Below, one piece after another: positions 16,000-39,015 of a DNA stretch of 46,114 nt. The notes beneath the pieces were generated by a model. That model worked only from the letters and a program-made list of their open reading frames with translations. It searched no databases and was not told the DNA's origin. Source of the stretch: an uncultured Bacteroidales bacterium (lineage in GTDB: Bacteria > Bacteroidota > Bacteroidia > Bacteroidales > UBA10428). The stretch's first letter is position 1; each line of letters opens with the position of its first letter. A program made the translations under genes and the position numbers. The stretch is from assembly GCA_964438935.1 (NCBI GenBank), contig CAYTNC010000002.1, positions 1 to 46,114 of the forward strand, in the 5' to 3' direction.

Positions 16000-16038
16000 A
16001 ATATTTCTATTTAACATAATATTAATTATAGGACATTC

Positions 16039-16358: not shown

Positions 16359-16399
16359 ATTCATAGTTTGTAACTACATCCCCGTTCCCCTTTCGAAAA

Positions 16400-16483: not shown

Positions 16484-16592
16484 ATAAAAATCTCTTTGAT
16501 ATTGGTAATTATCCCAAAGAATCTCGGTGCAATTGCAACCTTTCAGTGCTAACTTTATTAGCACTAATCCTTTATCCTAAAATTGTGTGCAG

Positions 16593-17183: not shown

Positions 17184-17252
17184 GTTAATATTGTGAATTC
17201 CTGTGCAGAAAAAGGGAAAGAACAGAACATTGAACGCATAATTTCAACTGAA

Positions 17253-17888
17253 ATGGAATACATCAATCTGGAAAAATGGAAGAGAAAAGAACATTACGAA
17301 TTCTTCCACAGTATGGATTATCCACAATACAATATTTGTATGGACATTGATGTCACTCATTTTTTGACGTATACCAGAAAAAAGGAACTGTCGTTTTACT
17401 ATTCAATGATTTATGCTGCCACCACGGTGATTAACCGTGTTGAAAACTTCAGATACCGGATACAGGATGATCAGGTAGTTTTACACAACAAATTACATCC
17501 TTCGTTTACTGATATGAACCGGGATCCGGAAGATGATTTGTTCAAAATGGTGACTGTTGACCTGACAGACAAAATTGATGATTTTGTAAAAATTGCCGGG
17601 CAAACCAATGAAAATCAAAAGGATTTTCTGGTACCGGAAAAATTAATCGAAAGAGATGATTTGATCTATATTACCTGTATCCCATGGATTTCTTTTACGC
17701 ATGTTTCTCATACCTTTTCACTGAATAGAAACGACTCAGTTCCCCGGATTTCCTGGGGAAAATATTACAAGCAAGGTGAGAGGATGTTACTGCCTTTTTC
17801 AGTGCAGGCGAATCATGCATTAGTCGACGGATATCATGTTGGAAAGTATGTTCAGCAATTGCAAACCTTTCTTGATGAAATTCAATAG
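17253..17888 (+). CDS. type A chloramphenicol O-acetyltransferase family protein
   Basis: MEYINLEKWKRKEHYEFF aligns with the classic CAT N-terminus (W.RKEHF..F). The C-terminus has NHALVDGYHVGKY, corresponding to the catalytic HHAVCDGFH region. I moved the start from the track's GTG at 17193 to the ATG at 17253. Confidence 0.8.
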   Translation: MEYINLEKWKRKEHYEFFHSMDYPQYNICMDIDVTHFLTYTRKKELSFYYSMIYAATTVINRVENFRYRIQDDQVVLHNKLHPSFTDMNRDPEDDLFKMVTVDLTDKIDDFVKIAGQTNENQKDFLVPEKLIERDDLIYITCIPWISFTHVSHTFSLNRNDSVPRISWGKYYKQGERMLLPFSVQANHALVDGYHVGKYVQQLQTFLDEIQ

Positions 17889-18130
17889 GCCGGTCACTAT
17901 TGACCATAGTGTTGATTATTTACCCAAAGAATTTGAAAAACTGGGTGATTCAATTTTTATCAATACAAGTATACAGGCTATTTTATTTATCTGTTTTCAG
18001 CCAGATTTTTAACAAAAAACAACATAACATTATCATTTCATTAACGCGGACTTGAAATAATTTGGCATATTTTCGGTAATTCTATCTTAAAATATTAACT
18101 GTCCTTCTATTAATAAAAACATCAAAACTT

Positions 18131-18844
18131 ATGAAAAAACCCAGGACTATTGTATTGGCATTTCTATTAACTATTTTATGCAATGTGTATTCACAGAATG
18201 AAGGTGTTAGAATAGGTATCGTAGGAGAAAAATTTTCAGATTTTACTTTAAAAACATACCAGGGAGGTCAGGTATCTACAGGTGAACTTCGTGGGAAAAA
18301 CATTTTGCTGATTTCTTCCAGGGGAAAATACAATGACAGCTACTGGTGTGGTATCTGCTTTTATCAGTATGCTGAACTGGCTGATCTGGAACTCACACAA
18401 AAAATCCGTGAAAAATACAACCTGGAGATTCTGTTCCTGCTGCCCTATAACAGGGATACACTTAAAAGCTGGGAGAAAAATTTCGCGGGAGGATTGGCTT
18501 ATATTGAAAAAGGTAAGAATCCGGCTGATCCGGAGAAATTATCAGATGCCCAGATAGAATGGATGAATTATACCCGCAGGCATTTTCCAAAAACGCTCTT
18601 ATATAATGACGGGAAAATACCCTTGCCATTGCCCGTTTTAATTGATGATCAGCAGCAAGTATCAAACGGATTGGATATATTGAGAACTGAGTGGGACGGT
18701 ACTAAAACGCTTCAGAATGTACCGGCAGTTTACCTCATCGATAAGGATGGTATACTCAGGTTTAAATACCTGAGTCAGTCAACAACTGACCGGCCAACGG
18801 CGGCATATATTCTGAACGTGATTGAGACCATGCTGGATAAATAA
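18131..18844 (+). CDS. secreted thioredoxin-fold (redoxin/AhpC-TSA-like) protein
   Basis: It has the signal peptide MKKPRTIVLAFLLTILCNVYSQ, a CxxC motif (WCGIC) after a beta-strand (KNILLISS), and a typical C-terminal VPAVYLIDKDGILRF. Confidence 0.7.
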   Translation: MKKPRTIVLAFLLTILCNVYSQNEGVRIGIVGEKFSDFTLKTYQGGQVSTGELRGKNILLISSRGKYNDSYWCGICFYQYAELADLELTQKIREKYNLEILFLLPYNRDTLKSWEKNFAGGLAYIEKGKNPADPEKLSDAQIEWMNYTRRHFPKTLLYNDGKIPLPLPVLIDDQQQVSNGLDILRTEWDGTKTLQNVPAVYLIDKDGILRFKYLSQSTTDRPTAAYILNVIETMLDK

Positions 18845-18996
18845 CATTCCGGCCGGAAATGCCGGCATATAAAGAAGTTCATATTCTCTGCAGGCATGAT
18901 TTCAGGTGGTATAATTCAGCATAACGAGCGTCGTCGAAGAGTCATATTATAATTATTAGTCCCTGTTTCAACTACGCCCGATAGCGTGTAAATTAT

Positions 18997-19024
18997 AAAA
19001 GCCTGACCCATGAGTCAGGCTTTT
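18997..19024. terminator. bidirectional intrinsic terminator between convergent genes
   Basis: AAAA-GCCTGAC-CCATGA-GTCAGGC-TTTT. The 7-bp GC-rich stem is flanked by an A-run and a T-run. Confidence 0.65.
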
Positions 19025-27525: not shown

Positions 27526-28449
27526 ATGAAGCACGTATGCGCAATATTGCTGATAACTCTGTTAATTCTTGCAGGTTCATCATGCAAAAAGGTGAAGGAA
27601 TACTTCCAGGATCCCGACACAGGGAGCCTGACAGAGACATTTCAAACTGCTGTGACCACAGGATACGCTGCTTCCCTTGCCATTGCTACGGTTTCAGGCA
27701 GCTCTTTTCCGAATGTCACCACAATCCGCAGCAATGAAGGATATCCGTGTACTACCCTGATGCAGGTTGATCTTCAGTCTGATTCCGGGTTTCTCCCATC
27801 AAATGAGAGCGCATCCGGAATAACAATTGCCGCCTTGTGGGCCAACGAAACCTGCGGTATACTTACCCTTCTTTTCACCGATTACCAATCTGAAACTTCC
27901 ACGTTTGACCTGCTGGCCATTAAAACAATACCGGTAATCCTTGATGATGACGGACTGCTCAGGGTTGCTCTTGCCAGTCAGGACATCAGTCTGAATCCCG
28001 ACCAGAAATCAATTCTTCAGATCAACCTGAATACGCAGGAGATTGAAAGTGAGTACAAACGACTTGACCAACCTTATCCTAACGATGTGTATTTTGCCAT
28101 TGAACAGGATGCTTACCTGATTACGGTGGATCGAAATGGAACCCCTGCAGAGGCTCAGGACGATGCCTATAACATTACCGGCGGGGGGCAACTCATAGAG
28201 GTTGATAACCAGGATGCCGAAATTCTCCAGCAGGGATTATTGGATGTTGAAATTGCGTCATCCTGCAATAGGAACCCGGTTTCCGGCATGGCGCTAATCA
28301 GGGTGGTTGGTGTAAAGGGCAGCAAATTGCCTGAACTGGGCACCGCACTTCTGGAATTTTCAAGCAGATGTACCGGAACTGCAAGGGTAATGTTGGCCAC
28401 CGGGATGTATGCGGGTGCCAACAGTAAGGCCATTTCCCTGCAGCCATAA
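27526..28449 (+). CDS. hypothetical lipoprotein
   Basis: 307 aa with a lipobox (LILAGSSC). I recognise no domain. Confidence 0.6.
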   Translation: MKHVCAILLITLLILAGSSCKKVKEYFQDPDTGSLTETFQTAVTTGYAASLAIATVSGSSFPNVTTIRSNEGYPCTTLMQVDLQSDSGFLPSNESASGITIAALWANETCGILTLLFTDYQSETSTFDLLAIKTIPVILDDDGLLRVALASQDISLNPDQKSILQINLNTQEIESEYKRLDQPYPNDVYFAIEQDAYLITVDRNGTPAEAQDDAYNITGGGQLIEVDNQDAEILQQGLLDVEIASSCNRNPVSGMALIRVVGVKGSKLPELGTALLEFSSRCTGTARVMLATGMYAGANSKAISLQP

Positions 28450-28455
28450 TGCTTT

Positions 28456-28699
28456 ATGGCCACACAAAATTATTTATTGTTTTTTTTAAGTGCTTCATGG
28501 CTATGTGCGAAAACTATCGCTTATACCCGAAATGGGTTTGCACTGTTGTTTGTGTCTGATGACCAGGCTTGGTCATACAAACTGGATGCGGTTTTTGGTT
28601 TGGCTTGGGATTGGGTTGCTCTTCTACTTCACTTTTAGTGGAAAGAAAAGCAAATTAAATAAGGCAGGAATTAAAACTCACGGTACTCCGGAGCTGTAA
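28456..28699 (+). pseudogene. C-terminal fragment of an APC amino acid permease (5'-truncated, probably frameshifted)
   Basis: The frame of ORF 28490..28699 gives LSLIPEMGLHCCLCLMTRLGHTNWMRFLVWLGIGLLFYFTFSGKKSKLNK. This aligns without gaps to the last 50 aa of the intact permease at 6505..7950, with 21 of 50 identical by my count. The upstream frame (28456..) carries a TM-like LLFFLSASW...YTRNGF. Confidence 0.55.
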
Positions 28700-28763
28700 T
28701 CACCAGATAACCCAGAATGAACAGGGAAACTGCCGGAACCAGAACAAGAAGTAAAGTAGCCAT
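28671..28763 (-). CDS. 30-aa hydrophobic peptide (KdpF-like or other small membrane protein), speculative
   Basis: ATG at 28763 and TAA at 28671..28673, giving MATLLLVLVPAVSLFILGYLVITAPEYREF. A perfect -7 box lies about 35 nt upstream. It is below the ORF-track cutoff. Confidence 0.3.
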   Translation of the reverse strand: MATLLLVLVPAVSLFILGYLVITAPEYREF

Positions 28764-28797
28764 GATGAAATTTGTTAGGTTAAATGTAACTTGGTAT

Positions 28798-28851
28798 CAA
28801 ATATACGCATCTTCGTCAAAAAAAGTTGCATGTTCGTCAAATTTTTTTGCA
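28798..28851 (-). promoter_or_regulatory. consensus -7 box TATATTTG (28798..28805) plus two tandem 19-nt direct repeats (28812..28830 and 28833..28851)
   Basis: On the + strand the repeats read TTCGTCAAA-aaaag-TTGCA and TTCGTCAAA-ttttt-TTGCA, with a 21-nt period. They sit just upstream of the -7 box relative to the small - strand ORF. Confidence 0.4.
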
Positions 28852-28913
28852 CAAATTAACCTATTCAAACATAAGACATTATAATACATTGATATTTAGA
28901 TAGATAGAAAGAA

Positions 28914-31250
28914 TCAATTAGGTTCCGTCATGATTTTGATGCGGGTAAAGAGATTTCCGAAATTGTTCTTTGTTTCATCGTCAAAATCCTTGTATTGAAC
29001 TCCTTCTTTCTGAATTTTGGAAATAAAATCACTGGCCAGGATAATTCTAGAAAGGTTATTGTTGGTGATGTACTCACTGTTGCGGATGGTGATTCCGGTT
29101 CGCTGCTGGATGATAAACCTTTTCAGGTCAATTGTTGAAAACAGGTCCTCCACCCAGGGGAACCCCTGCATCAGTATGATTTTTTTATCGGAAAATTCAG
29201 GATGCGGGTAAAAGGTAGTGGCTTTCAGAAAGTCAATCATGCCTGTTCCGGCAGGAGTGTCAGCCAGAAGAATTCCGAAATCCAGCTTCCAGCCAAAAAA
29301 CACATTGGCCATAGCAGGCACGTTATCAGTACCATTCGATGGGATGAAATGAACCTGATTTTCAAGTCCGTATAGCTTAGCCATTGTATCCAGATAATGA
29401 AATGTAACGGCATCTTCAACAATCAGGTTGTTGCGGGGAAAAACAAATTGTCTGTCGTTCAACCTCGTACCCATCAAAGCATAAATGGGTGAAAGTGTAT
29501 CTGAAGAAGCTGTACTGAGGCTGCGGGCATCAAGAATCAGGGTTTCGCTCTTTTCATCAGAATCCCGGGCACGTTGCACGGCAATGATGCGGTATAATTT
29601 CTTCAGGTCGATCAGGTTGGGTGAATGGGTACAATAGATGATCTGGAGATTCTCTCGCAAATCTTCAAAAACCTTGAGTACATCTTCCTGAGCCCTGGCG
29701 TGAAGACTTAACCCAGGTTCATCAATCAGCATGACCCGGTCAATAGTATTCGATTTGGTAGTTGCCTTCAATTCGAGGTAAAACGAGAGAAACCACCTTA
29801 CTCCCCTGCTCCGCTGCTTAGGGTAAAGCCTTTCCTGTTTATCTTTGATCCAGAATTCCAGGTATGGTTTTCCGCTTTTCTCAGGATGGGTATTGTCGTA
29901 ATGTTCCAGTTCGAAGTGTATGCGGATTTTGTCATCTTTACCCACACTTTGCCGCCAGTAGTCCTGAAAATCAATAGTAATCTCGCTGTTGAGATTTTCA
30001 ATCTTCTGTTTCAGTATCCGGTGGTTTTTTTCTCTGAAAAAATCGGCATTCAAACCGGCCACGTATAAAAAATTCCGGGCAGCCTTATAACCCTCGGCGT
30101 GTATGTTTTCGCTCAGTAGATCTTCCAGGTCGATTTTATTGGGCAACAGGCTGCTGAAATCTTCAAAAAACTCAAACATGGGAACCTTTTTAAACAAGGC
30201 TGCGCCCATTTCCATTACAGTTGGGTAGTTGTTTTCAACATCCTGCTCATGAACAGCTTCCTGTTCAGCGTCCTTCAGTTTTTTTCCGGCCAGCACTTTT
30301 TCAGCAACACGCAGCCTGATATAATAGCGGATGGTGTGTTCGTTCAATAAATCTGCGATCAGGTTCCTGTTTTCCTTTAATTGAGCAAGCTGTTTACCCA
30401 ATGTTTTCAGTTCTCTTTCTCCTGAGCGAGTTTCATAGTGGTGTTCAGCATCCTGCAGCAGTGAGGATTTCTCCTTAAGCTCTTCAGTCAGTCCCGTAAC
30501 CCGGGCTGAAAGTTCCTGAACCTGTTTGCACACTGAGAGTTTTTCAGCAAGTTGCTGCATGTTATTTTTGGAATCTTCCTTGGTAATCAGTTGTTCTTTA
30601 AGATTGGTCTCGGCATCGGCAAGCTGCTTCAGGCAGGTTTCCAGTTCCTGCTGTGCCGTGATCTGCTCGTCGGGAGTTTTTGCCTTGCTCACGGTTCGCT
30701 TCAGCTGTTCTGATCTGGAATAGATTGAATTAAGATCGCCTCGGGCAATTGAAACCAGGTTTTCAGCCGATTCCAGGTCGCGTGCTGACAATTCTGCCTG
30801 TTTTCCAAGCTCGGAAACAGCAGCAGCAATTAAGGCTACCCTTTCGCTTCTCTTCTGATCCAGGTGCTGAAAAAAGTTGGTTATCTCAGGTTCGTTGACA
30901 GTAACAATATTTTTTCGGGAATCAATCCATTTTCGGGTGATGCAGATTTCAGTTTTGGTGAAAACGGCTTTTTGCAGTTCGTCGGGAAAACCTGAAAGGA
31001 TAAGGCAATCTGACGGCCAGGATTTTTCTTCGAACTGAAATGCACAGGTAATTTCCGGAAAGGTAAGGTCGCTCCTCAATACATCATCGGTAATACTACC
31101 TTCATAAAAGCTCCTAAGGGCTTCGAGAACTGATGTTTTGCCCGACTCGTTCTGACCTATAAGTGCCGTGATGTAATCAGGTGACAAATGACACCGGCCT
31201 GAATCAACGATGGAGCGGTAGTTTTTTATCTGAAACGCACTAATTTTCAT
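28914..31250 (-). CDS. ABC-type (AAA_15/OLD-like) ATPase with a long coiled-coil insertion and a Toprim/DUF4435-like C-terminal region
   Basis: 778 aa. Walker A is GQNESGKTS (aa 32-40). A heptad-rich, Glu/Lys/Gln-rich segment spans about aa 130-335. The signature-like region is QRSRGVRWFLSF (aa 479-490), Walker B is RVMLIDEPG (aa 505-513) and the H-loop is IIYCTHSP (aa 537-544). The tail has NLIVEDAV (Glu612) and GILLADTPAG (Asp664). Confidence 0.8.
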   Translation of the reverse strand: MKISAFQIKNYRSIVDSGRCHLSPDYITALIGQNESGKTSVLEALRSFYEGSITDDVLRSDLTFPEITCAFQFEEKSWPSDCLILSGFPDELQKAVFTKTEICITRKWIDSRKNIVTVNEPEITNFFQHLDQKRSERVALIAAAVSELGKQAELSARDLESAENLVSIARGDLNSIYSRSEQLKRTVSKAKTPDEQITAQQELETCLKQLADAETNLKEQLITKEDSKNNMQQLAEKLSVCKQVQELSARVTGLTEELKEKSSLLQDAEHHYETRSGERELKTLGKQLAQLKENRNLIADLLNEHTIRYYIRLRVAEKVLAGKKLKDAEQEAVHEQDVENNYPTVMEMGAALFKKVPMFEFFEDFSSLLPNKIDLEDLLSENIHAEGYKAARNFLYVAGLNADFFREKNHRILKQKIENLNSEITIDFQDYWRQSVGKDDKIRIHFELEHYDNTHPEKSGKPYLEFWIKDKQERLYPKQRSRGVRWFLSFYLELKATTKSNTIDRVMLIDEPGLSLHARAQEDVLKVFEDLRENLQIIYCTHSPNLIDLKKLYRIIAVQRARDSDEKSETLILDARSLSTASSDTLSPIYALMGTRLNDRQFVFPRNNLIVEDAVTFHYLDTMAKLYGLENQVHFIPSNGTDNVPAMANVFFGWKLDFGILLADTPAGTGMIDFLKATTFYPHPEFSDKKIILMQGFPWVEDLFSTIDLKRFIIQQRTGITIRNSEYITNNNLSRIILASDFISKIQKEGVQYKDFDDETKNNFGNLFTRIKIMTEPN

Positions 31251-31281
31251 TGATTTGGGAATTTTGCAAACAATTAGCTGG

Positions 31282-32121
31282 TCAGGTTGAGGTATTTAGG
31301 CGAAAACCGAATACTAATACGTCATCTACCTGCGGATGGTTTCCTTTCCAATTATCAAAAGTTTGTCTTATGCTTTTTTCCTGCTGATGTAAAGGTAACT
31401 GGCTAATTTCAACCAGGAGTTTTCTGAAAGACTCGTATTTGAATTTCTTTCCTGCAGCACCCCCAAATTGGTCAACAAAACCGTCAGAAAACAAGTACAA
31501 GGTATCATTTGCATCCAGTTCATACTGGTGATTGCTAAAAGACAGCTCTTCTTCTGCCCCAATGCCAACAGGCATCATGTCTCCGGCAATTTCGAAAAAG
31601 CTCTTGTTGCGGACAATGTAAACAGGGTTAAATGCACCGGCAAAGTTCAGTATTCCTTTTTTAAGATCAATCATACAAAGTGCAATGTCAATGCCATCAA
31701 GCTGATCTGAATCCTGCCCGGTTTGGCAAAGAGCTTCCATCACATGTTCCCGCATCTGGTTTAGAACAGAACCTGCATGCAAGTACGTGCCATGCATGAT
31801 GATTTCGTTTAAACAGGTGATGCCCAATATGCTCATGAAAGCGCCGGGAACTCCATGTCCCGTGCAATCTGCTACTGCAACAAACAAATTTTCGTTTCGT
31901 TTTGAAACGTAATAAAAATCGCCACTAACCACTTCCCTAGGCCTGTAGAATATAAAATGTTCCGGGATCCAACTGTTCAATACCTCAAGTGTCGGAAACA
32001 TGGCCTGCTGAATGCGGCTGGCGTATATCAGGCTTTCTTTCAGCTGAAGCTCCTGGTGCAATTTGAGTTCGTCCGGGGTGGGTTCCAGATCACCTTCCTG
32101 TTGCATCTTGTCGCTTTTCAT
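31282..32121 (-). CDS. stand-alone PP2C-type (SpoIIE/RsbU-like) serine phosphatase
   Basis: 279 aa with ASRIQQAMFP, VSGDFYYV, VADCTGHGVPGAFMS, DGIDIALCMID, LFSDGFVDQFG and DDVLVFGF, the metal-binding Asp motifs of the SpoIIE domain. Only about 30 aa precede the domain, so there is no sensor domain. Confidence 0.85.
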   Translation of the reverse strand: MKSDKMQQEGDLEPTPDELKLHQELQLKESLIYASRIQQAMFPTLEVLNSWIPEHFIFYRPREVVSGDFYYVSKRNENLFVAVADCTGHGVPGAFMSILGITCLNEIIMHGTYLHAGSVLNQMREHVMEALCQTGQDSDQLDGIDIALCMIDLKKGILNFAGAFNPVYIVRNKSFFEIAGDMMPVGIGAEEELSFSNHQYELDANDTLYLFSDGFVDQFGGAAGKKFKYESFRKLLVEISQLPLHQQEKSIRQTFDNWKGNHPQVDDVLVFGFRLNTST

Positions 32122-32142
32122 GCTGTATTGTGAAAACCTGAA

Positions 32143-34152
32143 TTAAAATGTGACCCCACTGTTTTTTATCAGGATCATGCTGCCATTTTGCGCCGATATC
32201 AACAAATTGTTCTTTTGGTCGGTAAGCAATTCAGCAGCCGTTATCCCCCGGGGAACAGGTGCAGCTTTCAACAGTTCACCGTTCGAAGTATTTACCCAAC
32301 AAATAAACTGGCTGGTGCTGCAGGTAACCAGCATAATCAGCTGGTTTAGGCTTCCATTGATGATCGTATTGATGTTCACTGGGATATCAGGCAGGGTGAT
32401 CTCTTTCTCAAAAACCGGTTTATTTTCCATGCTGGTTTTGATCAGGATCATCCTGTCGGCATTTCTTATTCCGGCAAACAAGAGCTCGCCCCTGGGCAGA
32501 ACCTGAGAAGCCAGCATGCTGTCTGTAGATTTGAACAAGGATTCCCAGGCAAGGTATCCACGAGGATCAATTTTGGCCCTCCAGAAGTTTCCTGTGATCA
32601 GGATTTTCTTGTCGGGACATTCTGAAATGCCGGTAATCTTACCATTTCCGGTATAAGTTCTGCCCCACAACCGCTTGCCCGATTCATTGAGCACTACCAC
32701 GGAATACTTGTTGCGCAGCGAATCATCAACCACGTAACCACCCAGGAAAATCGAGTTATTACTTGTGATGCGAAGTGTATTGATGTGCATTCTTCCCAGT
32801 TTTCGGCTCCATATGCGTTGACCGTCTGTCCCCAGTTTAAAAATCCAGGATTCACGCGACAGCGAATCCAATCCCAGCCAGGTATAGCCTGCCCCAACAA
32901 GTTCGTTTTTCCGGTTCATAGCCATCAGCCTGAGCTCGTCATTATATTGCTCACCCACGTATTTGTTCCAGATCATTTTGCCATCCTCGTTGGTTTTAAT
33001 CACCCAGGCATCTGTTGAACCCGTGTCGCTCCGGAAAACAGTACCCCCGGTAAAGTAAAAGTTGAGGGTATCAACAGCCAGGCACGATGTCATTTCTTCA
33101 TTTCCCTCTTCATCAAACGAGCGTGCCCATAGAATATTGTTAGTCGATAAGGGACTGGATGCCAAAATTTGCATGCCCTTATCCAGTGTTTTCAGGTTGA
33201 AAATATCTACATATTGCTGACCATCAGGATATCTACGGATAAATTCATTATAAGCTTCCAGGGTTTGTATTTTTTTTGCGTATTCATACAAAAGCTGTTT
33301 CTGGATCAGTTTTGCCTCAGCTATTTCAAGTGCATCGGGATATTCCGAGATGAAATCATCAAAAGCTTGGATGGTATTGAGCTGCCTGGTTTTTTCAAAA
33401 GCTACGGCATAGAGCTTTTTGATGGCCGAATTGTTTTCAACGGCTTCCGGGTAATTTTTCATAAAATCCTTGTAAGCCTCAACCGTGTTGATTCGGCAGG
33501 CCTGCTCAAAAGCCAGTTGATTCCGGTATCGTTTTGCTTTATCAATCTGTGCCGCGTCGGGGAACTTTTCAATGAATTCGAGATAACCCGAGAGTTGATT
33601 TAGTTTTTCATACTTTCTAAATTCCAATTGGTTGCGGATATGAATCACATTATCGTAATGTTTGAAATCGGGAAACTCATTTAAAACCCGGTAAACCAAT
33701 TCAAGGTTGTTTTCTTCGCGGATGTATTTGATTAGTTTGCCTTCGATAGTTTCAACGGCATAATCAATTTTCTTCTTAACGGGTCGTGGAATGTGCCTGG
33801 TTTCAGTATTATAGAAGTATTCTCCTATCAACTCAATTTCCTCTTCAGTCAGCTTATCCAGGTTACTTTTTAGCTGGCCGGTATATTTCCAGGCTGCAGG
33901 CAAATCAAAAAATGACGAAGAGTCATCGGCCATGATCAGGGCAATTCCCAGTAAAGCAGCAGGTTGATCCTTGTTCTCGGAAAGAGCGCTCCTAAAAAGC
34001 TCAATAGCCTTCACATGATCATCCTTTTCAAGCAGCTTGAACCCCCTTTTAATATTTTGTGCCTGTAAGTCAATAGAAAAAAGTACCAGAAAAAAAGCTA
34101 CAGCCAATGCCGGCAGTGTTTTTTTAATAAATGCAGTATTCATCATGAGCAT
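32143..34152 (-). CDS. secreted protein with helical-repeat N-terminal half and beta-propeller-like C-terminal half
   Basis: 669 aa with the signal peptide (ALAVAFFLVLFSIDLQAQ) and about five repeats of the form x-EAY-xx-F-xx-YPD. The C-terminal half has repeated G..W.. strands. Confidence 0.65.
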   Translation of the reverse strand: MLMMNTAFIKKTLPALAVAFFLVLFSIDLQAQNIKRGFKLLEKDDHVKAIELFRSALSENKDQPAALLGIALIMADDSSSFFDLPAAWKYTGQLKSNLDKLTEEEIELIGEYFYNTETRHIPRPVKKKIDYAVETIEGKLIKYIREENNLELVYRVLNEFPDFKHYDNVIHIRNQLEFRKYEKLNQLSGYLEFIEKFPDAAQIDKAKRYRNQLAFEQACRINTVEAYKDFMKNYPEAVENNSAIKKLYAVAFEKTRQLNTIQAFDDFISEYPDALEIAEAKLIQKQLLYEYAKKIQTLEAYNEFIRRYPDGQQYVDIFNLKTLDKGMQILASSPLSTNNILWARSFDEEGNEEMTSCLAVDTLNFYFTGGTVFRSDTGSTDAWVIKTNEDGKMIWNKYVGEQYNDELRLMAMNRKNELVGAGYTWLGLDSLSRESWIFKLGTDGQRIWSRKLGRMHINTLRITSNNSIFLGGYVVDDSLRNKYSVVVLNESGKRLWGRTYTGNGKITGISECPDKKILITGNFWRAKIDPRGYLAWESLFKSTDSMLASQVLPRGELLFAGIRNADRMILIKTSMENKPVFEKEITLPDIPVNINTIINGSLNQLIMLVTCSTSQFICWVNTSNGELLKAAPVPRGITAAELLTDQKNNLLISAQNGSMILIKNSGVTF

Positions 34153-34154
34153 TC

Positions 34155-35555
34155 TTATTTTTTGATCAGTGTGAATTCAACCCGGCGGTTTTGTGCTCTA
34201 CCGGCATCAGTTTGGTTGGTGTCAACCGGACGGCTCTCGCCATAACCTTTGGCGCGCATTCTTTCCGGTTTAACGCCCTGCGAGGAAAGGTAGGCCACCA
34301 CTGATGCAGCCCTGCCTTCCGAAAGTTTCTGGTTATAGGAATCGGAACCTTCACTGTCGGTATGACCAGATATTTCAATCAGCTGGATGTTCGCTTCCAG
34401 CATAAACTGAACCACCTTGTCGAGTTCCATATAGGAAGCCGGCAATAAATCGGTTTTGTTGAATTCAAAGAAAATATTTTCCAGCACCACGGCTGATCCT
34501 TCTTCAATGGCTTTGAGACCTTCCAGAAATTCGTCCTTCACAATCAATGGCTCAATAAACACAACCGTATCCGAGGAGCGACAGTTGTATTTATCCGAAG
34601 CCCGGTAAATATATTTCCCGGCAGGAAGATTTCGGAGTTCGGTTCCGGTTTGCTGGTTATTCCAGGTAACCAGGTACGGAGGGGTACCACCCAGCAGTCC
34701 GATGCGGATGCTGCCATCATTAATGATCCTGTTTACTTTTCCGGTGGAAAGATTCTGTCCACCCGTATAGCGGGTTTCAATTATCCGGCTTTCGAAATCG
34801 TGCAACACGCAGGGACAGTCCAGACAGTTTTCCAGCGGTAACACAGAAACGTCGTCGAAGTAATAATAAGCATAGGCTTTATTACGTAAATTAACCACGT
34901 TTTTGTCGGTTACTACATAATTGGTATTGTCGTAGTTTTTAAAGTTACCGATAATAAAGAAACGCTCATTGCCGGAGGCCGTATAAACCGTGCAAAATTC
35001 CTCCCACTGGTCAATGTTGTCAAGAAAGAGTCCTACCTTATTGGTTAACTGAGGCGTGTAGGAAAGGTTAATATTGACATTGTTATTCCGGATCTCTGTT
35101 TGGCCAAAATAAAGGCTCATCTGATCAACAGCGAAGCGAGAGTATGATGCCAGCTTGTAGTAAAAACGAACACAATATTGCTGATCCTTAATAAGTGGTG
35201 ATGACAGTGTTCCCTGGATGTACTCGCGATAGCTTTCTTCAGTTCCGCTCAAAATGGCACCCGCATAACCATCTCCACTGTGAGGTTCGCTTTCTCCGGC
35301 AAAATTTTTGGGAACCCCCACGTTTCTTTTACTGCAACGGTTAAAATAGTCGGGCGTAGCAATAGACGGGTAGGTCCAAAAGGGCACCAGCTTATGCGAT
35401 AGATCAGTTGGAGTATCGTCTTCCGGACATTTATCATATTTCTCAAAACCCGGATTCAGAACCAGATTTCGTTCCTGCGACTGCAGGTTGAAACAAGATG
35501 AGCCAGCCATGAAAAAGCAAATGGCAGCTAAAACAGGTTTAACATCCATAACCAA
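34155..35555 (-). CDS. OmpA-family protein with N-terminal jelly-roll-like and SprB-repeat-like modules
   Basis: The C-terminus has FEFNKTDLLP....ISGHTDSEGSDSYNQKLSEGRA....NRRVEF, the OmpA_C peptidoglycan-binding motifs. The middle has GGTPPYLVTWNN..G..L.NLPAGKY. Confidence 0.82.
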   Translation of the reverse strand: MVMDVKPVLAAICFFMAGSSCFNLQSQERNLVLNPGFEKYDKCPEDDTPTDLSHKLVPFWTYPSIATPDYFNRCSKRNVGVPKNFAGESEPHSGDGYAGAILSGTEESYREYIQGTLSSPLIKDQQYCVRFYYKLASYSRFAVDQMSLYFGQTEIRNNNVNINLSYTPQLTNKVGLFLDNIDQWEEFCTVYTASGNERFFIIGNFKNYDNTNYVVTDKNVVNLRNKAYAYYYFDDVSVLPLENCLDCPCVLHDFESRIIETRYTGGQNLSTGKVNRIINDGSIRIGLLGGTPPYLVTWNNQQTGTELRNLPAGKYIYRASDKYNCRSSDTVVFIEPLIVKDEFLEGLKAIEEGSAVVLENIFFEFNKTDLLPASYMELDKVVQFMLEANIQLIEISGHTDSEGSDSYNQKLSEGRAASVVAYLSSQGVKPERMRAKGYGESRPVDTNQTDAGRAQNRRVEFTLIKK

Positions 35556-35575
35556 ATTTTAAAACACAAGATAAG

Positions 35576-36625
35576 TTATTTTCTTAAAGCAGACAAAGAT
35601 TTTGCTATGGCTTTGTCAATTCTCCTTACGATAAACGGGCCCTCATAAATAAACCCAGTATACACTTGTACCAATGACGCACCGGCATGGATCATATCTA
35701 GTGCATCCTCGGGTGTAAGAATACCACCTGAAGCGATTACCGGGATGGAATTACCAGATTGTTTACATATGTAACGCACCATTTTCAATGATTGTTCCTT
35801 AAGCGGATTCCCACTTAAACCGCCCGATCCAATTTCCCTTATTCTGCTTTGTGAAGTAAGCAAGCCCGAGCGTGAGTTGGTAGTATTGGTAGCTACAATG
35901 CCGTCAAAACCAATTCTATGGTATAATTCCAGAATTTCATCAATGTGTTTAAGGGAAAGATCTGGTGATATTTTAAGAAAAACCGGTTTTTTCACCTCTT
36001 TCAAGGCACGTGCATCCATAATAGTACTTAGAATTGTCCCAAGTGCTTCGGAATTCTGCAACTTTTCCAGGTCTTTAATATTCGGACAACTCACGTTAAC
36101 AACCAGGTAATCTACCACATCATACAGACCCTCAAAGCATTTCAGGTAGTCTCCTGCAGCATCAGTATTTGAGGTCGCTGTGTTTTTGCCTATATTACCT
36201 CCGATAAGCACCTTTCTTTCAGGCGATCGCAACTGTGCCACAGCATGATTTAACCCTTTGTTATTGAATCCCATTCGGTTAATAAGGGCTTTATCTGCAG
36301 GAAGCCTGAACAATCTGGGGCTCGGATTTCCAGGCTGCGCTAAGGGAGTAACCGTACCAATTTCAATAAATGAAAAGCCGAAAACCGAGAAATCGTTGTA
36401 AAAATCGGCATTCTTATCAAATCCGGCAGCCATCCCCACCTTTCCAGGGAATTCAAGTCCTGCCACCCGTGTTGTAAGCACCGGATGCCGGTAAGTGAAG
36501 CATCTTTTCAGCAATATTCCCAAACCGGGTATCCGGTTGGCCAGTTTTACAAAAAAAACAATGAAATGATGGATCTTTTCTGCATCAATTAAGAATAAGA
36601 GGGGTCGAAGCAGTGTTTTATACAT
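35576..36625 (-). CDS. pyrD: dihydroorotate dehydrogenase (quinone), class 2
   Basis: 349 aa with MYKTLLRPLLFLIDAEKIH, GFDKN, IGGNIGKN, NVSCPN and SGGI. Confidence 0.92.
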   Translation of the reverse strand: MYKTLLRPLLFLIDAEKIHHFIVFFVKLANRIPGLGILLKRCFTYRHPVLTTRVAGLEFPGKVGMAAGFDKNADFYNDFSVFGFSFIEIGTVTPLAQPGNPSPRLFRLPADKALINRMGFNNKGLNHAVAQLRSPERKVLIGGNIGKNTATSNTDAAGDYLKCFEGLYDVVDYLVVNVSCPNIKDLEKLQNSEALGTILSTIMDARALKEVKKPVFLKISPDLSLKHIDEILELYHRIGFDGIVATNTTNSRSGLLTSQSRIREIGSGGLSGNPLKEQSLKMVRYICKQSGNSIPVIASGGILTPEDALDMIHAGASLVQVYTGFIYEGPFIVRRIDKAIAKSLSALRK

Positions 36626-36655
36626 GCGATTTTCGACAAAGATAAGGATAATCTG

Positions 36656-37081
36656 TCAATCTTTATCCGCTTGCCGATATACTTCGAAGGTTCCATCATG
36701 ATGCAGCAACAATACCTTATTAATTGAAGATACATTTGTAACATCTGGTTTTCGGGTAATGTATGCTGCCGCGTCTTCTTCACGGGTCTGGGGGGTTGAA
36801 AATAAATCGGGTTGCCGTATGGCTTCACTTGAGTGTTCCTTAATGGGTTTGATTTCGGCAACGGGCTCCTTATCTTTGAGCAGGGTTCCCTTACCCAAAA
36901 GAAGCCATTCGGCATTGATATCCGGAAAACGGGTCAGTAATTTAACCATAAAATCATATCCGGGTTGGTTTCTTCCGCTCAGTATATGAGATATCCCCGA
37001 ACGCTGAACCCCTATTTCATCGGCCAGCCGGGTAGCGGTTAAGCCCAAATGATTCAATACTTTAATTAACCTGTCTTTCAT
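36656..37081 (-). CDS. XRE-type helix-turn-helix protein
   Basis: 141 aa. The N-terminus has LTATRLADEIGVQRSGISHILSGRNQPGYDFMVKLL (HTH), followed by an unrecognised C-terminal half. Confidence 0.75.
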   Translation of the reverse strand: MKDRLIKVLNHLGLTATRLADEIGVQRSGISHILSGRNQPGYDFMVKLLTRFPDINAEWLLLGKGTLLKDKEPVAEIKPIKEHSSEAIRQPDLFSTPQTREEDAAAYITRKPDVTNVSSINKVLLLHHDGTFEVYRQADKD

Positions 37082-37082
37082 A

Positions 37083-37140
37083 TTACAAATGTAATCATTT
37101 TGAGTATTACATAAGTAACTTTTAGTGTTTACATTTGTGA
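37083..37140. promoter_or_regulatory. three spaced 12-mers TTACAnnnGT(A/G)A upstream of the HTH gene, candidate operators
   Basis: TTACAAATGTAA at 37083..37094, TTACATAAGTAA at 37107..37118 and TTACATTTGTGA at 37129..37140, spaced 24 and 22 nt apart. The first abuts the start codon at 37081. Confidence 0.3.
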
Positions 37141-37501
37141 TTTAAGGTTGTGTTTACCCTGATTATTCGAAATTATTTAAATATGCGACTCAATTTTATA
37201 AAAGAAGCATACCGGCATACATCAGTTACCACTTAAATTAAATGTTTATTATTAATATGTAAAAAACAGGATATCAATATAATATATGTTCAAAATACAT
37301 AAAATTAAAGCTTTTTTACCTTAAAATGATTATTTACTTCAATGATTACTTTTGAAAATATGTTTAAAATACTGGAATACAGTTATTAAAAGTATATCAA
37401 TATAGTCATTTATAAATATGAAAAGTTGATGAATAGCCTGTTTTTAACAGAAAAGAAGATTGTTTGGGCTACCTTTCCGATGGTTAATTCCAGAAATGGA
37501 A

Positions 37502-38452
37502 TTACTCTGGATATAATGCGTAAACGATGTTGATGCTTTTGGGAACTATTTTGAATTCAATGGGTGAATGTCCGAGTGATTCGCCATCGGCTTCTACATG
37601 GATGAGTGGATCACTGTCGATCAGGATGTCTTTGCCGGTATATCCTTCAATTTTTGGATGATCCAATATGGATCCGTCATAGAGCATTTTCAGGTTTCGT
37701 ATCACCTCTCCTTTTCTCATTTTTTTTATTATTGTAATATCAAAGAGCCCGTCATCAGGTATGGCATTTGGTGTCTGCATCATACCCCCGCCTGAAAATC
37801 GGCCAATGCCGATGCTTATTGTAAAAACATCATTTTGAAAAACCTTTCCGTCAATATCAACTGAAGTGGAAGTGTGACTATAGAAAAGCAGGCTTTTGAG
37901 CAGATTCAGCATATAGGCTGCCTTGCTTCTCCTGCCTTTGTCCTTTTGTACATTGGTGCGTTTTACCACCACTGCATCAAACCCCAGTCCCGCTATATTG
38001 ATGAAGTATCTTTTATCACGAACGGTGCCATTGTAATAATAAACAATCCCGGCATCCTGTAGCCGCACTTTCTGCTCACTTATGATTTGAATAGACTTTT
38101 CATAATGCAGGGGAATACTGAACAGCTTACCCCAGTCGTTACCCGTTCCTACTGTAATCATGGCCAGAGTGATATCGGTAGTCGGACAGTTATCCTGTGT
38201 GAACACCCCATTGACCACTTCGTTCATGGTTCCGTCACCGCCTACCACAATGATCTTCCGGAAGCCTGATGCAATTCCTTCACGGGCTATGGTTATGGCG
38301 TGCCGCCGGGCCACCGTGAAAACCTCCCGGAAGTCAATTTTGTATTTGTTGAGCAAGCCGGAAATCTCTGACCAGTCATTCTGACCTTTGCTATGCCCTG
38401 CATTGGGATTAACGATTACCAGCCATTCCATTCTGAGTTCGGTTTTATTCAT
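37502..38452 (-). CDS. diacylglycerol kinase-family lipid kinase (YegS/BmrU-like)
   Basis: 316 aa with IVNPNAG and VVGGDGTMNEVVNG, the DAGK catalytic-domain motifs. Confidence 0.85.
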   Translation of the reverse strand: MNKTELRMEWLVIVNPNAGHSKGQNDWSEISGLLNKYKIDFREVFTVARRHAITIAREGIASGFRKIIVVGGDGTMNEVVNGVFTQDNCPTTDITLAMITVGTGNDWGKLFSIPLHYEKSIQIISEQKVRLQDAGIVYYYNGTVRDKRYFINIAGLGFDAVVVKRTNVQKDKGRRSKAAYMLNLLKSLLFYSHTSTSVDIDGKVFQNDVFTISIGIGRFSGGGMMQTPNAIPDDGLFDITIIKKMRKGEVIRNLKMLYDGSILDHPKIEGYTGKDILIDSDPLIHVEADGESLGHSPIEFKIVPKSINIVYALYPE

Positions 38453-38665
38453 AAGTGGTTCTTTTCGAAGTGGAAGCGGTGATTTATTTTTTATCTACAG
38501 TAAATATAATATTAATAAAATGGGTATTGGTAATTGATTGTATGATTCTGCTATTCAAAGAATGCCTAAACTCGTGCTTTTATTAGGGCTAGATGTAAAG
38601 AACAAAACTTTTGGTATTTGTACTTTTGGCGCTGTAGCCAAAAGTGACAAAATCAAACCACCTAT

Positions 38666-38699
38666 AAAAAAAAAGGGTGTTTCGCCATACGAAACACCC
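38666..38699 (-). terminator. intrinsic terminator of csp copy 2
   Basis: On the - strand it reads GGGTGTTTCG-TATGG-CGAAACACCC followed by T9. Confidence 0.85.
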
Positions 38700-38733
38700 C
38701 CAAGGATTAAAATTTTCGGGTACTGATCGAATA

Positions 38734-38925
38734 TTATATTCGTTTCACATTCACTGCATTCAATCCTTTTTTTCCTTGCTGAAGCTCGAATGATACATTA
38801 TCATCCTCCTTGATTTTGTCAATCAGGCCCGACACATGAACAAAGTACTCGTTGCCTGATTCATCATCCTTAATAAATCCAAATCCTTTGTTTTCATTAA
38901 AGAACTTTACTTTACCTTCTTTCAT
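38734..38925 (-). CDS. cold-shock protein (CspA family), copy 2
   Basis: 63 aa, MKEGKVKFFNENKGFGFIKD...FVHVSGL. It is collinear with copy 1 at 26913..27104. Confidence 0.92.
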   Translation of the reverse strand: MKEGKVKFFNENKGFGFIKDDESGNEYFVHVSGLIDKIKEDDNVSFELQQGKKGLNAVNVKRI

Positions 38926-38946
38926 AGCATTAAATTAAATATTATA

Positions 38947-38954
38947 CACAAAGT
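38947..38954 (-). promoter_or_regulatory. candidate -7 promoter box TAACTTTG for csp copy 2
   Basis: The reverse complement matches TAnnTTTG. It lies 22 nt upstream of the ATG. Confidence 0.35.
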
Positions 38955-39015
38955 TATAATTAAATAATAAATTAACCTTTACTTATTCGGGCAAAAAAAT
39001 TAAGATTTTTTATTT

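What the first reader, a model, noticed from the sequence alone, without database searches (positions are those of the whole stretch)
28914..32121. Minimal PP2C phosphatase paired with a coiled-coil ABC/OLD-like ATPase carrying a Toprim-like tail: candidate undescribed two-gene (defence-like) module
In the sequence, the two genes are co-oriented with a 31-nt gap. The ATPase has Walker A GQNESGKTS and an insertion of about 200 aa rich in heptad-like E/K/Q/L between Walker A and the signature-like QRSRGVRWFLSF. Walker B is VMLIDEPG and the H-loop is CTHS. That is the Rad50/SMC-style architecture found in OLD, AAA_15 and Lamassu-type ATPases. The last roughly 170 aa show a Toprim-like Glu (LIVEDAV) but only a single Asp (LLADTP) where OLD nucleases have DxD, so nuclease competence is doubtful. 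The phosphatase has all the SpoIIE metal-binding Asp motifs but no sensor or partner-switching domain, and no STAS or anti-sigma genes are nearby. From established knowledge, OLD-type ATPases partner with UvrD-like helicases (Gabija), retron reverse transcriptases or DUF4435 proteins (PARIS). Coiled-coil ABC ATPases partner with variable effectors (Lamassu/ABC-3C). PP2C phosphatases appear in the TerY-P defence triad. I know of no described system that pairs PP2C directly with such an ATPase. My inference is a sensor ATPase plus phosphatase effector or regulator, placed at a locus with gene debris on its 3' side.
Basis: partly seen in the sequence, partly recalled or inferred. Interest (0 to 1): 0.75.

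Follow-up and report, generated by a model that had tools for sequence, protein, structure and literature searches.

The report
Phosphatase paired with nuclease-dead OLD ATPase
This is a real, tightly conserved and apparently undescribed two-gene unit of uncultured Bacteroidales, in which a bare PP2C protein phosphatase always sits just upstream of an OLD-family ATPase whose nuclease site is decaying, but it looks like stably inherited chromosomal equipment, not a mobile defence island.

Summary
Both genes are real and lie on the minus strand: PP2C at 31282-32121 and the ATPase at 28914-31250, 31 nt apart.

- **Pairing.** In 80 GTDB species representatives carrying the ATPase (42-93% identity), a PP2C gene lies directly upstream and co-oriented in all 76 loci that have upstream DNA. 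Every other neighbour changes.
- **Identity.** The ATPase belongs to a large OLD-like family. More distant relatives include short (~600 aa) and long (729-804 aa) forms on plasmids, viral contigs and chromosomes. None examined has a PP2C nearby, and nearly all keep the Toprim Glu and DxD.
- **Nuclease decay.** The PP2C-linked clade has largely lost these residues. DxD survives in 21/80 members; the window has A-D-T. The domain is still under purifying selection (dN/dS about 0.1).
- **Context.** Neighbours are housekeeping genes, divergence tracks the neighbours, and no defence or mobile genes are nearby. At least one syntenic relative lacks the pair.

Best reading: an OLD-derived sensor ATPase whose output has shifted from a nuclease to a PP2C phosphatase. 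Whether it serves immunity or endogenous stress signalling is open. It is a new variant of a known kind.

The parts
31282..32121 (-). PP2C (SpoIIE/RsbU/SiaA-type) protein phosphatase gene, 279 aa. It is a catalytic domain with only ~25-45 poorly conserved N-terminal residues and no sensor domain.
   Evidence: ORF. Pfam SpoIIE 8.1e-23, above cut-off. NCBIfam SiaA C-terminal region 3.4e-53, below that model's cut-off. Metal-binding motifs SGDFYY, DCTGHGVPGA, FSDGFVDQFGG and VDDV are conserved in 74 orthologues. dN/dS 0.10-0.15.
31251..31281 (-). 31-nt spacer between the PP2C stop and the ATPase start. No terminator-like site lies in it.
   Evidence: Across 72 loci the spacer has a median of 32 nt (range 1-271) and the genes are always co-oriented.
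28914..31250 (-). OLD-family ABC ATPase gene, 778 aa: ATPase head, long helical insertion and degenerate Toprim tail.
   Evidence: Pfam AAA_15 and AAA_21. PADLOC AriA and Old models at ~1e-25. AF2 model with pLDDT 83.5. Among the top Foldseek hits (E 1.8e-09 and 3.6e-09), TsOLD 6p74 and GajA have the highest query-normalised TM-scores (0.32-0.33).
30891..31250 (-). ATPase head, N-terminal lobe (residues 1-120), including Walker A GQNESGKTS at nt 31131-31157.
   Evidence: Walker A is invariant in 31 homologues.
30189..30890 (-). Helical (coiled-coil-like) insertion, residues 121-354. It sits at the position of the OLD dimerisation domain and is the most variable part of the protein.
   Evidence: AF2 helices 121-189, 193-274, 278-320, 325-340 and 345-353. 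Mean column identity 0.41-0.53. dN/dS 0.16. Short-form relatives lack ~150 aa here.
29571..30188 (-). ATPase head, C-terminal lobe (residues 355-560): FFEDFSSLLPNKIDL block, signature-like QRSRGVRWFLSF (nt 29781-29816), Walker B VMLIDEPG (nt 29712-29735) and H-loop CTHS (nt 29622-29633).
   Evidence: Column identity is about 0.8-0.96 in this region, and the signature, Walker B and H-loop are invariant. dN/dS for the head is 0.05-0.09.
28917..29453 (-). Degenerate Toprim-derived C-terminal domain (residues 600-778). The Glu motif LIVEDA lies at nt 29409-29426. The DxD-equivalent LLADTP lies at nt 29253-29270 and reads A-D-T. The conserved VEDLFSTIDLK block follows.
   Evidence: - Beta-alpha-beta fold in the AF2 models.
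- Weak Foldseek hit to TsOLD, followed by the T7 gp4 primase Toprim.
- Alignment with Toprim-intact relatives.
- Some relatives pass the PF20469 cut-off.
- Motif census in the clade: Glu 68/80, DxD 21/80.
- dN/dS 0.08-0.15.
28508..28696 (+). Context only: remnant (last 63 codons) of an amino-acid permease gene. About 1.7 kb has been deleted relative to close relatives.
   Evidence: tblastn gives 86% identity to residues 522-584 of the intact 584-aa permease of L001. blastn flanks support the deletion. The family is AA_permease.
32143..35555 (-). Context: co-oriented upstream genes for a secreted TPR/beta-propeller protein (32143-34152) and an OmpA-family protein (34155-35555). They are kept next to the pair in about half of the loci but are not obligatory partners.
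   Evidence: The OmpA-TPR genes are present in 41/80 loci. OmpA-TPR clusters also exist without the pair.

Best explanation
The locus encodes a two-protein signalling unit descended from a single-gene OLD-type ATPase-nuclease.

**What is shown**
- The ATPase keeps a fully intact ABC head, so it is presumably ATP-binding and ATP-hydrolysing.
- It carries an elongated helical dimerisation insert.
- Its Toprim nuclease site has decayed: the window has A-D-T in place of DxD.
- The bare PP2C catalytic domain encoded 31 nt upstream always accompanies it.

**What is inferred**
- The ATPase acts as the sensor and regulatory subunit. By analogy with OLD-type ATPases, it could respond to an aberrant DNA or replication state or to a foreign protein.
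- ATP-driven head engagement changes the conformation of the coiled coil and pseudo-Toprim scaffold. This switches on, or releases, the bound PP2C.
- The PP2C then dephosphorylates a phospho-Ser/Thr target encoded elsewhere, plausibly a STAS/SiaC-like partner-switch protein or another regulator.
- In effect, the phosphatase has replaced the nuclease as the output.

**Status of the module**
It is chromosomal and largely vertically inherited in a clade of uncultured Bacteroidales. Its biological role, a retained immune or abortive response versus endogenous stress signalling, is not resolved.
For: **Obligate pairing**
- A PP2C lies directly upstream and co-oriented in 76/76 GTDB loci with upstream DNA, spanning 42-93% ATPase identity, while every other neighbour changes.
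- The median spacer is 32 nt.
- A further 30 metagenome loci show the same arrangement.
- Pairwise identities of the two proteins correlate at r = 0.91.

**A discrete clade**
- The representative at 41% identity (P0135) has a SpoIIE gene 11 nt upstream.
- Relatives at 25-43% identity have none within the DNA available. These include plasmid, viral and chromosomal copies, both short and long forms.

**Effector decay coincides with the pairing**
- Outgroup representatives keep the Toprim Glu in 101/101 and D-x-[DE] in 90/101.
- PP2C-linked representatives keep Glu in 8/14 and DxD in 2/14.
- GTDB loci plus the window keep Glu in 68/80 and DxD in 21/80.
- The tail is nevertheless still constrained, with dN/dS 0.08-0.15.

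**ATPase likely competent**
- Walker A, signature motif, Walker B and H-loop are invariant.

**PP2C likely active and in need of a regulator**
- The catalytic Asp motifs are conserved.
- It has no sensor domain.
- Its nearest paralogues (38-45% identity) are C-terminal output domains of 1100-1700-aa sensor proteins.

**Homology to sensor ATPases of OLD, PARIS, Septu and Gabija systems**
-.
Against: - No physical interaction, enzymatic activity or phenotype was tested. AlphaFold-Multimer was not available.
- No substrate, kinase or STAS gene is linked to the pair in the scanned window genes or as a conserved gene in the 80 loci, so the output step is pure inference.
- 21 of 80 clade members keep Glu plus DDD and could still be nucleases. 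'Replacement' may therefore be 'addition followed by frequent loss'.
- The Toprim assignment of the tail rests on transitive homology and a weak fold match (E 0.08). A profile search against PDB sequences found nothing.
- The motif census counts related sequences, not independent evolutionary events.
- At least one syntenic relative (L120) lacks the pair, so it is dispensable in some lineages.
Confidence: 0.45

Rival explanations
1. It is a bona fide anti-phage or abortive-infection system, effectively a new OLD class. The ATPase senses infection and the PP2C is the toxic or regulatory effector. The system happens to have become stably resident in this lineage.
For: - All characterised OLD-family proteins act in phage defence, and Class 1 OLD genes are typically solitary and outside defence islands (PMC10568477).
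- The best PADLOC hits are AriA, Old, PtuA and GajA.
- Outgroup relatives sit on plasmids and viral contigs.
- One syntenic locus lacks the pair (L120).
Against: - Neighbourhoods are housekeeping in every clade, with no defence or mobile genes.
- The pair co-diverges with PyrD, OmpA and TPR neighbours at housekeeping-like rates.
- dN/dS is about 0.1, and the head domain is about 90% invariant across the clade.
- No clade member was found on plasmids or phages.
- The PP2C has no hit in PADLOC.
Confidence: 0.25
2. The direction of control is reversed. The ATPase is the working component, an SMC/Rad50-like DNA-binding or clamping protein, still a nuclease in the members that keep DDD. The PP2C merely regulates it by removing an inhibitory or activating phosphate from it.
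For: - The ATPase is the more conserved partner and resembles SMC, Rad50 and RecN heads with a coiled coil.
- 21/80 members keep an apparently intact Toprim site.
- The PP2C is minimal, as expected for a dedicated accessory enzyme.
Against: - No kinase is linked to the pair in any locus.
- A candidate phospho-acceptor was examined and rejected. Ser459, in a conserved loop that the model predicts with low confidence, varies across the clade (54/81), and the loop also occurs in PP2C-less relatives.
- NCBIfam RecF and related models score far below their cut-offs.
- Loss of the nuclease site in most members leaves the ATPase without an obvious effector activity of its own.
Confidence: 0.15
3. The two genes are functionally unrelated. 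They stay adjacent only through inherited gene order.
For: Other neighbours (OmpA, TPR, PyrD) also stay adjacent over part of the clade.
Against: - The pair is the only adjacency that survives all rearrangements, in 76/76 loci across at least five different flanking contexts.
- Spacers are short.
- PP2C presence tracks exactly the ATPase subclade whose Toprim site decays.
Confidence: 0.05

Closest known systems
Class 1 OLD nucleases (phage P2 Old; Thermus scotoductus OLD, PDB 6P74)
   Same: Both have an N-terminal ABC ATPase with a helical dimerisation insert, followed by a C-terminal Toprim-type domain. The PADLOC 'Old' model matches residues 493-651 (1.9e-24). 6p74 is among the best full-length fold matches and is the top hit for the tail alone. 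Closer solo relatives pass Pfam OLD-like_TOPRIM.
   Different: The window protein lacks DxD (A-D-T). The insert is about 150 aa longer. The gene is never solitary, always following a PP2C gene. It is chromosomal and vertically inherited rather than carried on a prophage or plasmid.
PARIS (AriA ABC ATPase plus AriB Toprim nuclease; OLD Class 4)
   Same: An AAA_15-type ATPase acts with a separately encoded effector. AriA is the best PDB sequence match (5e-06) and the best PADLOC match. The scaffold-releases-effector logic is the model for the mechanism proposed here.
   Different: The partner is a PP2C, not a DUF4435/Toprim AriB. This ATPase retains a dead Toprim tail of its own. No AriB-like gene is nearby.
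Gabija (GajA/GajB) and Septu or retron PtuA/PtuB
   Same: GajA is a top structural match over the ATPase plus tail (TMq 0.33). PtuA and GajA models hit the head domain.
   Different: No UvrD-like helicase, HNH nuclease, reverse transcriptase or ncRNA is adjacent in any of the 80 loci.
RsbU/SiaA/SpoIIE-type PP2C partner-switching phosphatases
   Same: The PP2C has the same catalytic family and motifs. The NCBIfam SiaA catalytic region matches at 3.4e-53, and Pfam SpoIIE is above its cut-off.
   Different: It has no N-terminal sensor or HAMP domain. No STAS/SiaC substrate or RsbW/SiaB kinase gene was seen among the scanned window genes or as a conserved neighbour in related loci. The presumed regulator is an ABC ATPase, which I have not seen described for this phosphatase family (own knowledge).
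TerY-P triad (TerY vWA protein, Ser/Thr kinase, PP2C)
   Different: No vWA or kinase gene is present. The PP2C has no PADLOC hit at E <= 0.01.

Membership tests
OLD family (ATPase-Toprim nucleases) | N-terminal ABC ATPase with Walker A/B, signature motif and H-loop | tested here: met
   Pfam AAA_15 1.6e-26 and AAA_21 9e-18. All motifs are invariant in 31 homologues.
OLD family (ATPase-Toprim nucleases) | Helical dimerisation domain inserted into the ATPase | tested here: met
   The AF2 model shows helices 121-353 inserted between the two ATPase lobes. Dimerisation itself was not tested.
OLD family (ATPase-Toprim nucleases) | C-terminal Toprim fold | tested here: inconclusive
   - The AF2 models show a four-strand beta-alpha domain.
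- Foldseek on the tail alone gives TsOLD as top hit, but only at E 0.08, prob 0.69.
- There is no Pfam or PDB-sequence hit for the window's own tail.
- Homologues alignable through residue ~772 pass PF20469 (P0247 29.0 bits, P0250 24.6, P0216 23.6, against a cut-off of 23.2).
OLD family (ATPase-Toprim nucleases) | Catalytic Toprim residues (Glu plus DxD) for two-metal cleavage | tested here: not met
   The window has E612 but A-D-T at the DxD position. In the clade, Glu is kept in 68/80 and DxD in 21/80, against 101/101 and 90/101 in outgroup representatives.
OLD Classes 2-4 (Gabija, retron-linked, PARIS) | Class-defining neighbour: UvrD-like GajB, reverse transcriptase plus ncRNA, or DUF4435 AriB | tested here: not met
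   The only constant neighbour is a SpoIIE-family PP2C. The others are housekeeping genes. There are no Rfam hits in the region.
OLD Class 1 | Solitary gene | tested here: not met
   It is always preceded by a PP2C (76/76 loci). The solitary condition holds for the outgroup relatives.
PPM/PP2C phosphatases (SpoIIE/RsbU/SiaA branch) | PPM catalytic domain with conserved metal-binding aspartates | tested here: met
   Pfam SpoIIE scores 81.8 bits against a cut-off of 25. Asp motifs are conserved in 74 orthologues.
Partner-switching modules (RsbU-RsbV-RsbW, SiaABC) | Linked STAS/SiaC-type substrate and HATPase_c kinase; sensor domain on the phosphatase | tested here: not met
   None was seen among the 29 window ORFs scanned with Pfam, and none appears as a conserved neighbour in the 80 loci. 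The SiaA equivalog score of 181 bits is far below its cut-off of 700. Such genes elsewhere in the genome could not be checked.
TerY-P defence triad | TerY (vWA) plus Ser/Thr kinase plus PP2C | tested here: not met
   No vWA or kinase gene is nearby. The PP2C has no PADLOC hit.
Housekeeping SMC-like repair ATPases (RecF, RecN, SbcC) | Score above the curated equivalog cut-off | tested here: not met
   RecF TIGR00611 scores 21.9 bits against a cut-off of 172. PRK14079 scores 16.7 against 386.
Anti-phage defence system (generic) | Protective phenotype; enrichment near defence or mobile genes; patchy distribution | tested here: inconclusive
   - There is no defence or mobile context.
- Divergence is vertical-like.
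- One syntenic locus lacks the pair.
- Phenotype is not testable with these tools.

The most novel reading that the evidence does not exclude
This would be a fifth, previously unrecognised class of OLD-family system in which a PP2C protein phosphatase has taken over from the Toprim nuclease as the effector. It would be the first case of an ABC/OLD-type sensor ATPase wired to Ser/Thr dephosphorylation. It would also be an immune-type sensor captured by the host as a stably inherited signalling module.
Probability: 0.4. Interest if true: 0.75.

Novelty: new variant of a known kind. Interest (0 to 1): 0.62.

Why it matters
OLD-family ATPases are currently classified by their neighbours: solitary, helicase, retron, or AriB. 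In every class they act through a nuclease.

This clade shows three things together. The constant neighbour is a protein phosphatase. The nuclease site decays after that association arises. The unit then persists by vertical descent in ordinary chromosomal neighbourhoods.

If the coupling is real, it has three consequences:
- It shows that ABC/OLD sensors can be rewired from nucleic-acid cleavage to phospho-signalling.
- It offers a natural series for dissecting what the ATPase senses without a lethal read-out. The series runs from Toprim-intact solo forms, through Toprim-intact PP2C-paired forms, to Toprim-dead PP2C-paired forms.
- It gives a concrete example of an immune-type module being domesticated, or alternatively of defence genes that escape island-based discovery.

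Tried and rejected
1. **Profile search of the C-terminal domain against PDB sequences.** It returned only chance-level hits. Pfam also found nothing on the isolated tail. The Toprim call therefore rests on relatives and on fold.
2. **First C-terminal structure job.** It was redone with cropped database proteins.
3. **Ser459 as a clade-specific phospho-acceptor or PP2C-docking site.** The idea was that Ser459, in the conserved PEKSGKPY loop that the model predicts with low confidence, served this role. It was rejected because Ser is present in only 54/81 sequences and the loop also exists in the PP2C-less viral relatives L088 and L089.
4. **Promoter and terminator scan of 28300-37400.** Counts did not exceed the shuffled controls (25 vs 18.2 +/- 4.5; 9 vs 9.3 +/- 3.1). 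Bacteroidota promoters are not covered by the scan in any case.
5. **Rfam scan of the window.** It found only two tRNAs at 3044-3201 and nothing near the pair.
6. **A fused 'AAA family ATPase'-PP2C protein in Flammeovirga as a possible Rosetta-stone fusion.** The ATPase there is a STAND AAA_16 with kinase and GAF domains, so it is unrelated to OLD.
7. **Literature searches for PP2C/SpoIIE together with OLD, AAA_15, Toprim or anti-phage.** No description of this pairing turned up. The only PP2C mention in a defence-discovery paper is a figure-legend abbreviation for an unrelated candidate, and the window PP2C has no PADLOC hit.
8. **Obligatory link to the upstream OmpA and TPR-propeller genes.** This was rejected. 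The pair occurs without them in about half of the loci, and they occur without the pair.

Full report
**1.

Two long ORFs lie head to tail on the minus strand. One is a 279-aa protein at 31282-32121. The other is a 778-aa protein at 28914-31250, 31 nt downstream.
- The first is a SpoIIE-family PP2C (Pfam 8.1e-23). It also matches the catalytic part of NCBIfam SiaA at 3.4e-53, far below that model's equivalog cut-off.
- The second is an AAA_15/AAA_21 ABC ATPase (1.6e-26 and 9e-18).
- An AlphaFold2 model built on 31 homologues (mean pLDDT 83.5) shows an ABC head interrupted by nearly continuous helices across residues 121-353. After a linker comes a beta-alpha-beta-alpha-beta-alpha-beta domain at 608-694, followed by a helical end.
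- Both genes evolve under purifying selection against the three closest relatives. dN/dS is 0.05-0.09 for the head, 0.16 for the helical insert, 0.08-0.15 for the tail and 0.10-0.15 for the PP2C.

**2. The pair is a conserved module**

A scan of one genome per GTDB species found at least 400 relatives of the ATPase. The best 80 were kept (42-93% identity), and all are uncultured Bacteroidales/Bacteroidota MAGs.
- tblastn finds a PP2C orthologue (45-88% identity) immediately upstream on the same strand in all 76 loci that contain upstream DNA. In the other four loci the ATPase abuts the contig end.
- The spacer has a median of 32 nt (range 1-271).
- Clustering of all flanking ORFs shows no third gene is constant:
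  - about half of the loci have OmpA-family and TPR/propeller genes upstream;
  - others have PurB and NfeD;
  - others have an unknown gene, with a DnaQ-GIY-YIG exonuclease downstream;
  - further arrangements also occur.
- Pairwise identities of the ATPase and PP2C across 71 genomes correlate at r = 0.91.

**3. What the ATPase is**

- PADLOC's best matches are AriA, Old, PtuA and GajA models. The Old model aligns across the end of the head into the tail, covering residues 493-651.
- The nearest solved sequences are AriA, PtuA and T. scotoductus OLD.
- Foldseek on the full model returns SMC/Rad50 heads together with TsOLD and GajA. The latter two have the highest query-normalised TM-scores, 0.32-0.33.
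- An exhaustive HMMER search of 1.84 billion cluster representatives found 447 clusters at E <= 1e-30:
  - about 16 long representatives at 41% identity or more;
  - then long forms at 29-39% identity;
  - then more than 100 short forms (546-669 aa) that align from about residue 330 through about 772 at 32-43% identity.
- Such relatives occur on plasmids of Lactococcus, Bacillus thuringiensis, Streptomyces and Octadecabacter, and on IMG/VR viral contigs.
- Three of ten outgroup representatives scanned pass the Pfam OLD-like_TOPRIM cut-off, and three plasmid copies fall just below it.
- The tail of the window protein alone gives no Pfam or PDB-sequence hit. Its fold match to TsOLD is weak (E 0.08), with the T7 primase Toprim next.
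- I therefore accept it as a divergent OLD-type Toprim by transitive homology. I mark the fold test as inconclusive on its own.

**4. The key new result: Toprim decay tracks the PP2C**

- Alignments with the outgroup place LIVED at the Toprim Glu strand and LLADT at the DxD strand.
- Motif census:

| Group | Toprim Glu kept | D-x-[DE] kept |
|---|---|---|
| Outgroup representatives | 101/101 | 90/101 |
| PP2C-type representatives | 8/14 | 2/14 |
| GTDB loci plus window | 68/80 | 21/80 |

- The members that keep DDD all lie in the branch most distant from the window.
- Context look-ups define the boundary of the pairing:
  - P0135 (41% identity, Glu replaced by Asn, DxD lost) has a SpoIIE gene 11 nt upstream.
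  - P0143 (short form, 43% over the shared part) has no PP2C homologue in the DNA held.
  - Neither do P0142, P0146, P0211 and P0232 (long forms, 29-34%).
  - Neither do three plasmid copies and five viral-contig copies.
  - P0136 has none within the 310 nt upstream that are available.
- The extended helical insert therefore predates the PP2C association. Relaxation of the nuclease site follows it.
- These counts are of related sequences, not independent events. A reconciled tree is needed to say how many times the site was lost.

**5. Context and inheritance**

- The 46-kb window is an ordinary chromosomal stretch. It carries GyrA, a Clp ATPase, a Ste24-type protease, cytochrome c assembly, MsrA, PyrD, UDP-glucose dehydrogenase and two tRNAs.
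- The scanned ORFs include no STAS, anti-sigma, defence or mobile genes. GC content across the pair is unremarkable.
- Related loci are flanked by RlmN, MetA, PurB, NfeD, permeases and the like.
- ATPase identity falls in step with PyrD, OmpA and the TPR protein (r = 0.84-0.93).
- No relative above about 35% identity was found on plasmids, phages or viral contigs.
- As a test of patchiness, I fetched 77 metagenome loci through the upstream TPR/propeller gene:
  - 48 of them have at least 1.2 kb downstream.
  - 30 of those 48 carry PP2C directly after the TPR gene, followed by the ATPase wherever the contig extends far enough. The other 18 lack it.
  - Most of the 18 are distant (TPR below 40% identity).
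  - L120 has the window's exact gene order, DAGK-HTH-PyrD-OmpA-TPR-permease, with nothing in between.
  - L139, L150 and L138 also lack the pair at that site.
- The module is therefore long-lived and mostly vertical, but not indispensable.

**6. Mechanism**

- **Shown:**
  - obligate adjacency;
  - an intact ATPase head;
  - an intact PP2C catalytic site;
  - a decayed but still constrained Toprim;
  - a PP2C with no sensor domain, whose nearest paralogues are output domains of large sensor proteins, one built as propeller/Y_Y_Y-PP2C and one as kinase-STAND-GAF-PP2C.
- **Inferred:**
  - the ATPase is the sensor and regulator;
  - the PP2C is the output;
  - the output acts on a phosphoprotein encoded elsewhere.
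- The analogy is PARIS, where an AAA_15 ATPase scaffold holds and releases a separately encoded effector (abstracts listed, PMC11464382 and PMC10802264).
- The trigger and the target are unknown.
- I put 0.45 on this mechanism.
- Within it, I regard an endogenous surveillance or stress role as somewhat more likely than active anti-phage immunity, because of the inheritance pattern.
- Solitary Class 1 OLD genes also sit outside defence islands (PMC10568477), so context alone cannot exclude immunity.

**7. Comparison and novelty**

- The protein is a member of the OLD-like ATPase superfamily by its head, its insert and the ancestry of its tail.
- It fails the catalytic-residue test for an OLD nuclease.
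- It fails the neighbour tests for Classes 1-4.
- The PP2C belongs to the SpoIIE/RsbU/SiaA catalytic family but lacks the sensor and the partner-switch neighbours.
- PADLOC 2.0 has no model matching the PP2C.
- Six text searches of the paper library found no description of a PP2C-OLD pairing. The library is incomplete, so this is absence of evidence only.
- I rate it a new variant of a known kind, with interest 0.62.

**8. The 3' 'debris'**

The 465-nt gap downstream of the ATPase contains the last 63 codons of an amino-acid permease (28508-28696, plus strand, 86% identical to L001). About 1.7 kb has been deleted relative to L001 and L003, where the 584-aa gene is intact. The deletion is a local event and is unrelated to the module.

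Noticed in passing
window 28508-28696 (+): C-terminal 63-codon remnant of an amino-acid permease. The gene is intact (584 aa) at the same position in the close relatives L001 and L003, which implies a ~1.7-kb deletion in the window lineage. The same deletion appears to be present in the Logan contig L081, which has the same 465-nt spacing and only a 30-aa called ORF in the gap.
   Followed up: yes
L120 (metagenome contig Ga0105092_10001738), about 5977-8269: The gene order matches the window (DAGK-HTH-PyrD-OmpA-TPR-permease) but the PP2C-ATPase pair is absent. The TPR/propeller gene there is split into 540-aa and 112-aa ORFs. This could be a deletion of the pair, or a lineage that never had it at this site.
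   Followed up: partly
L022, L029, L030, L033, L034, L036, L037, L041, L054, L061, L068: immediately downstream of the ATPase: In 11 loci a second envelope gene follows the ATPase on the same strand: a ~763-aa protein with TPR, PD40, CarboxypepD_reg and OmpA domains. Usually a conserved unknown 333-aa secreted-looking protein (c4) comes next. The pair is then bracketed by OmpA-family genes on both sides. The meaning is unknown.
   Followed up: partly
window 32143-34152 (-): A 669-aa secreted protein sits upstream of the PP2C. It has weak YbgF/CpoB-like TPR hits and beta-propeller (SBBP/delta-60) hits, and follows an OmpA-family protein that has an SprB-repeat hit. This is a Tol-Pal-like flavour. 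It is conserved next to the pair in about half of the loci.
   Followed up: partly
window 15001-19000 and 37001-39000: These stretches have lower GC (0.34-0.41 against ~0.44 elsewhere). The first holds a truncated-looking alpha/beta hydrolase (198 aa), a chloramphenicol-acetyltransferase-family gene (17193-17888) and an AhpC-like gene. It may be recently acquired.
   Followed up: no
window 44973-45776 (-): An HTH_3 plus Peptidase_S24 protein (LexA/phage-repressor-like, 267 aa) lies near the window's end. It could be relevant if the module responds to DNA damage, but no link was examined.
   Followed up: no
window 3044-3201 (+): Two adjacent tRNA genes (Rfam tRNA, 65.9 and 66.9 bits).
   Followed up: no
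L097 (JGI contig Ga0374055_0036635) 968-2484 and 9196-11368: The distant long-form relative P0146 (33% identity, Toprim intact, no PP2C) sits near a second small AAA_15/AAA_21 gene with a 170-aa partner, and near a large TPR-CHAT protein. This neighbourhood looks more defence-like than any PP2C-linked locus.
   Followed up: no
L087 (Flammeovirga kamogawensis plasmid p1) 597-5771: A 1724-aa protein has the architecture kinase-AAA_16(STAND)-GAF-PP2C, and its PP2C domain is 38% identical to the window's. It shows this PP2C type used as the output of a different ATPase-based sensor, fused rather than separately encoded.
   Followed up: partly
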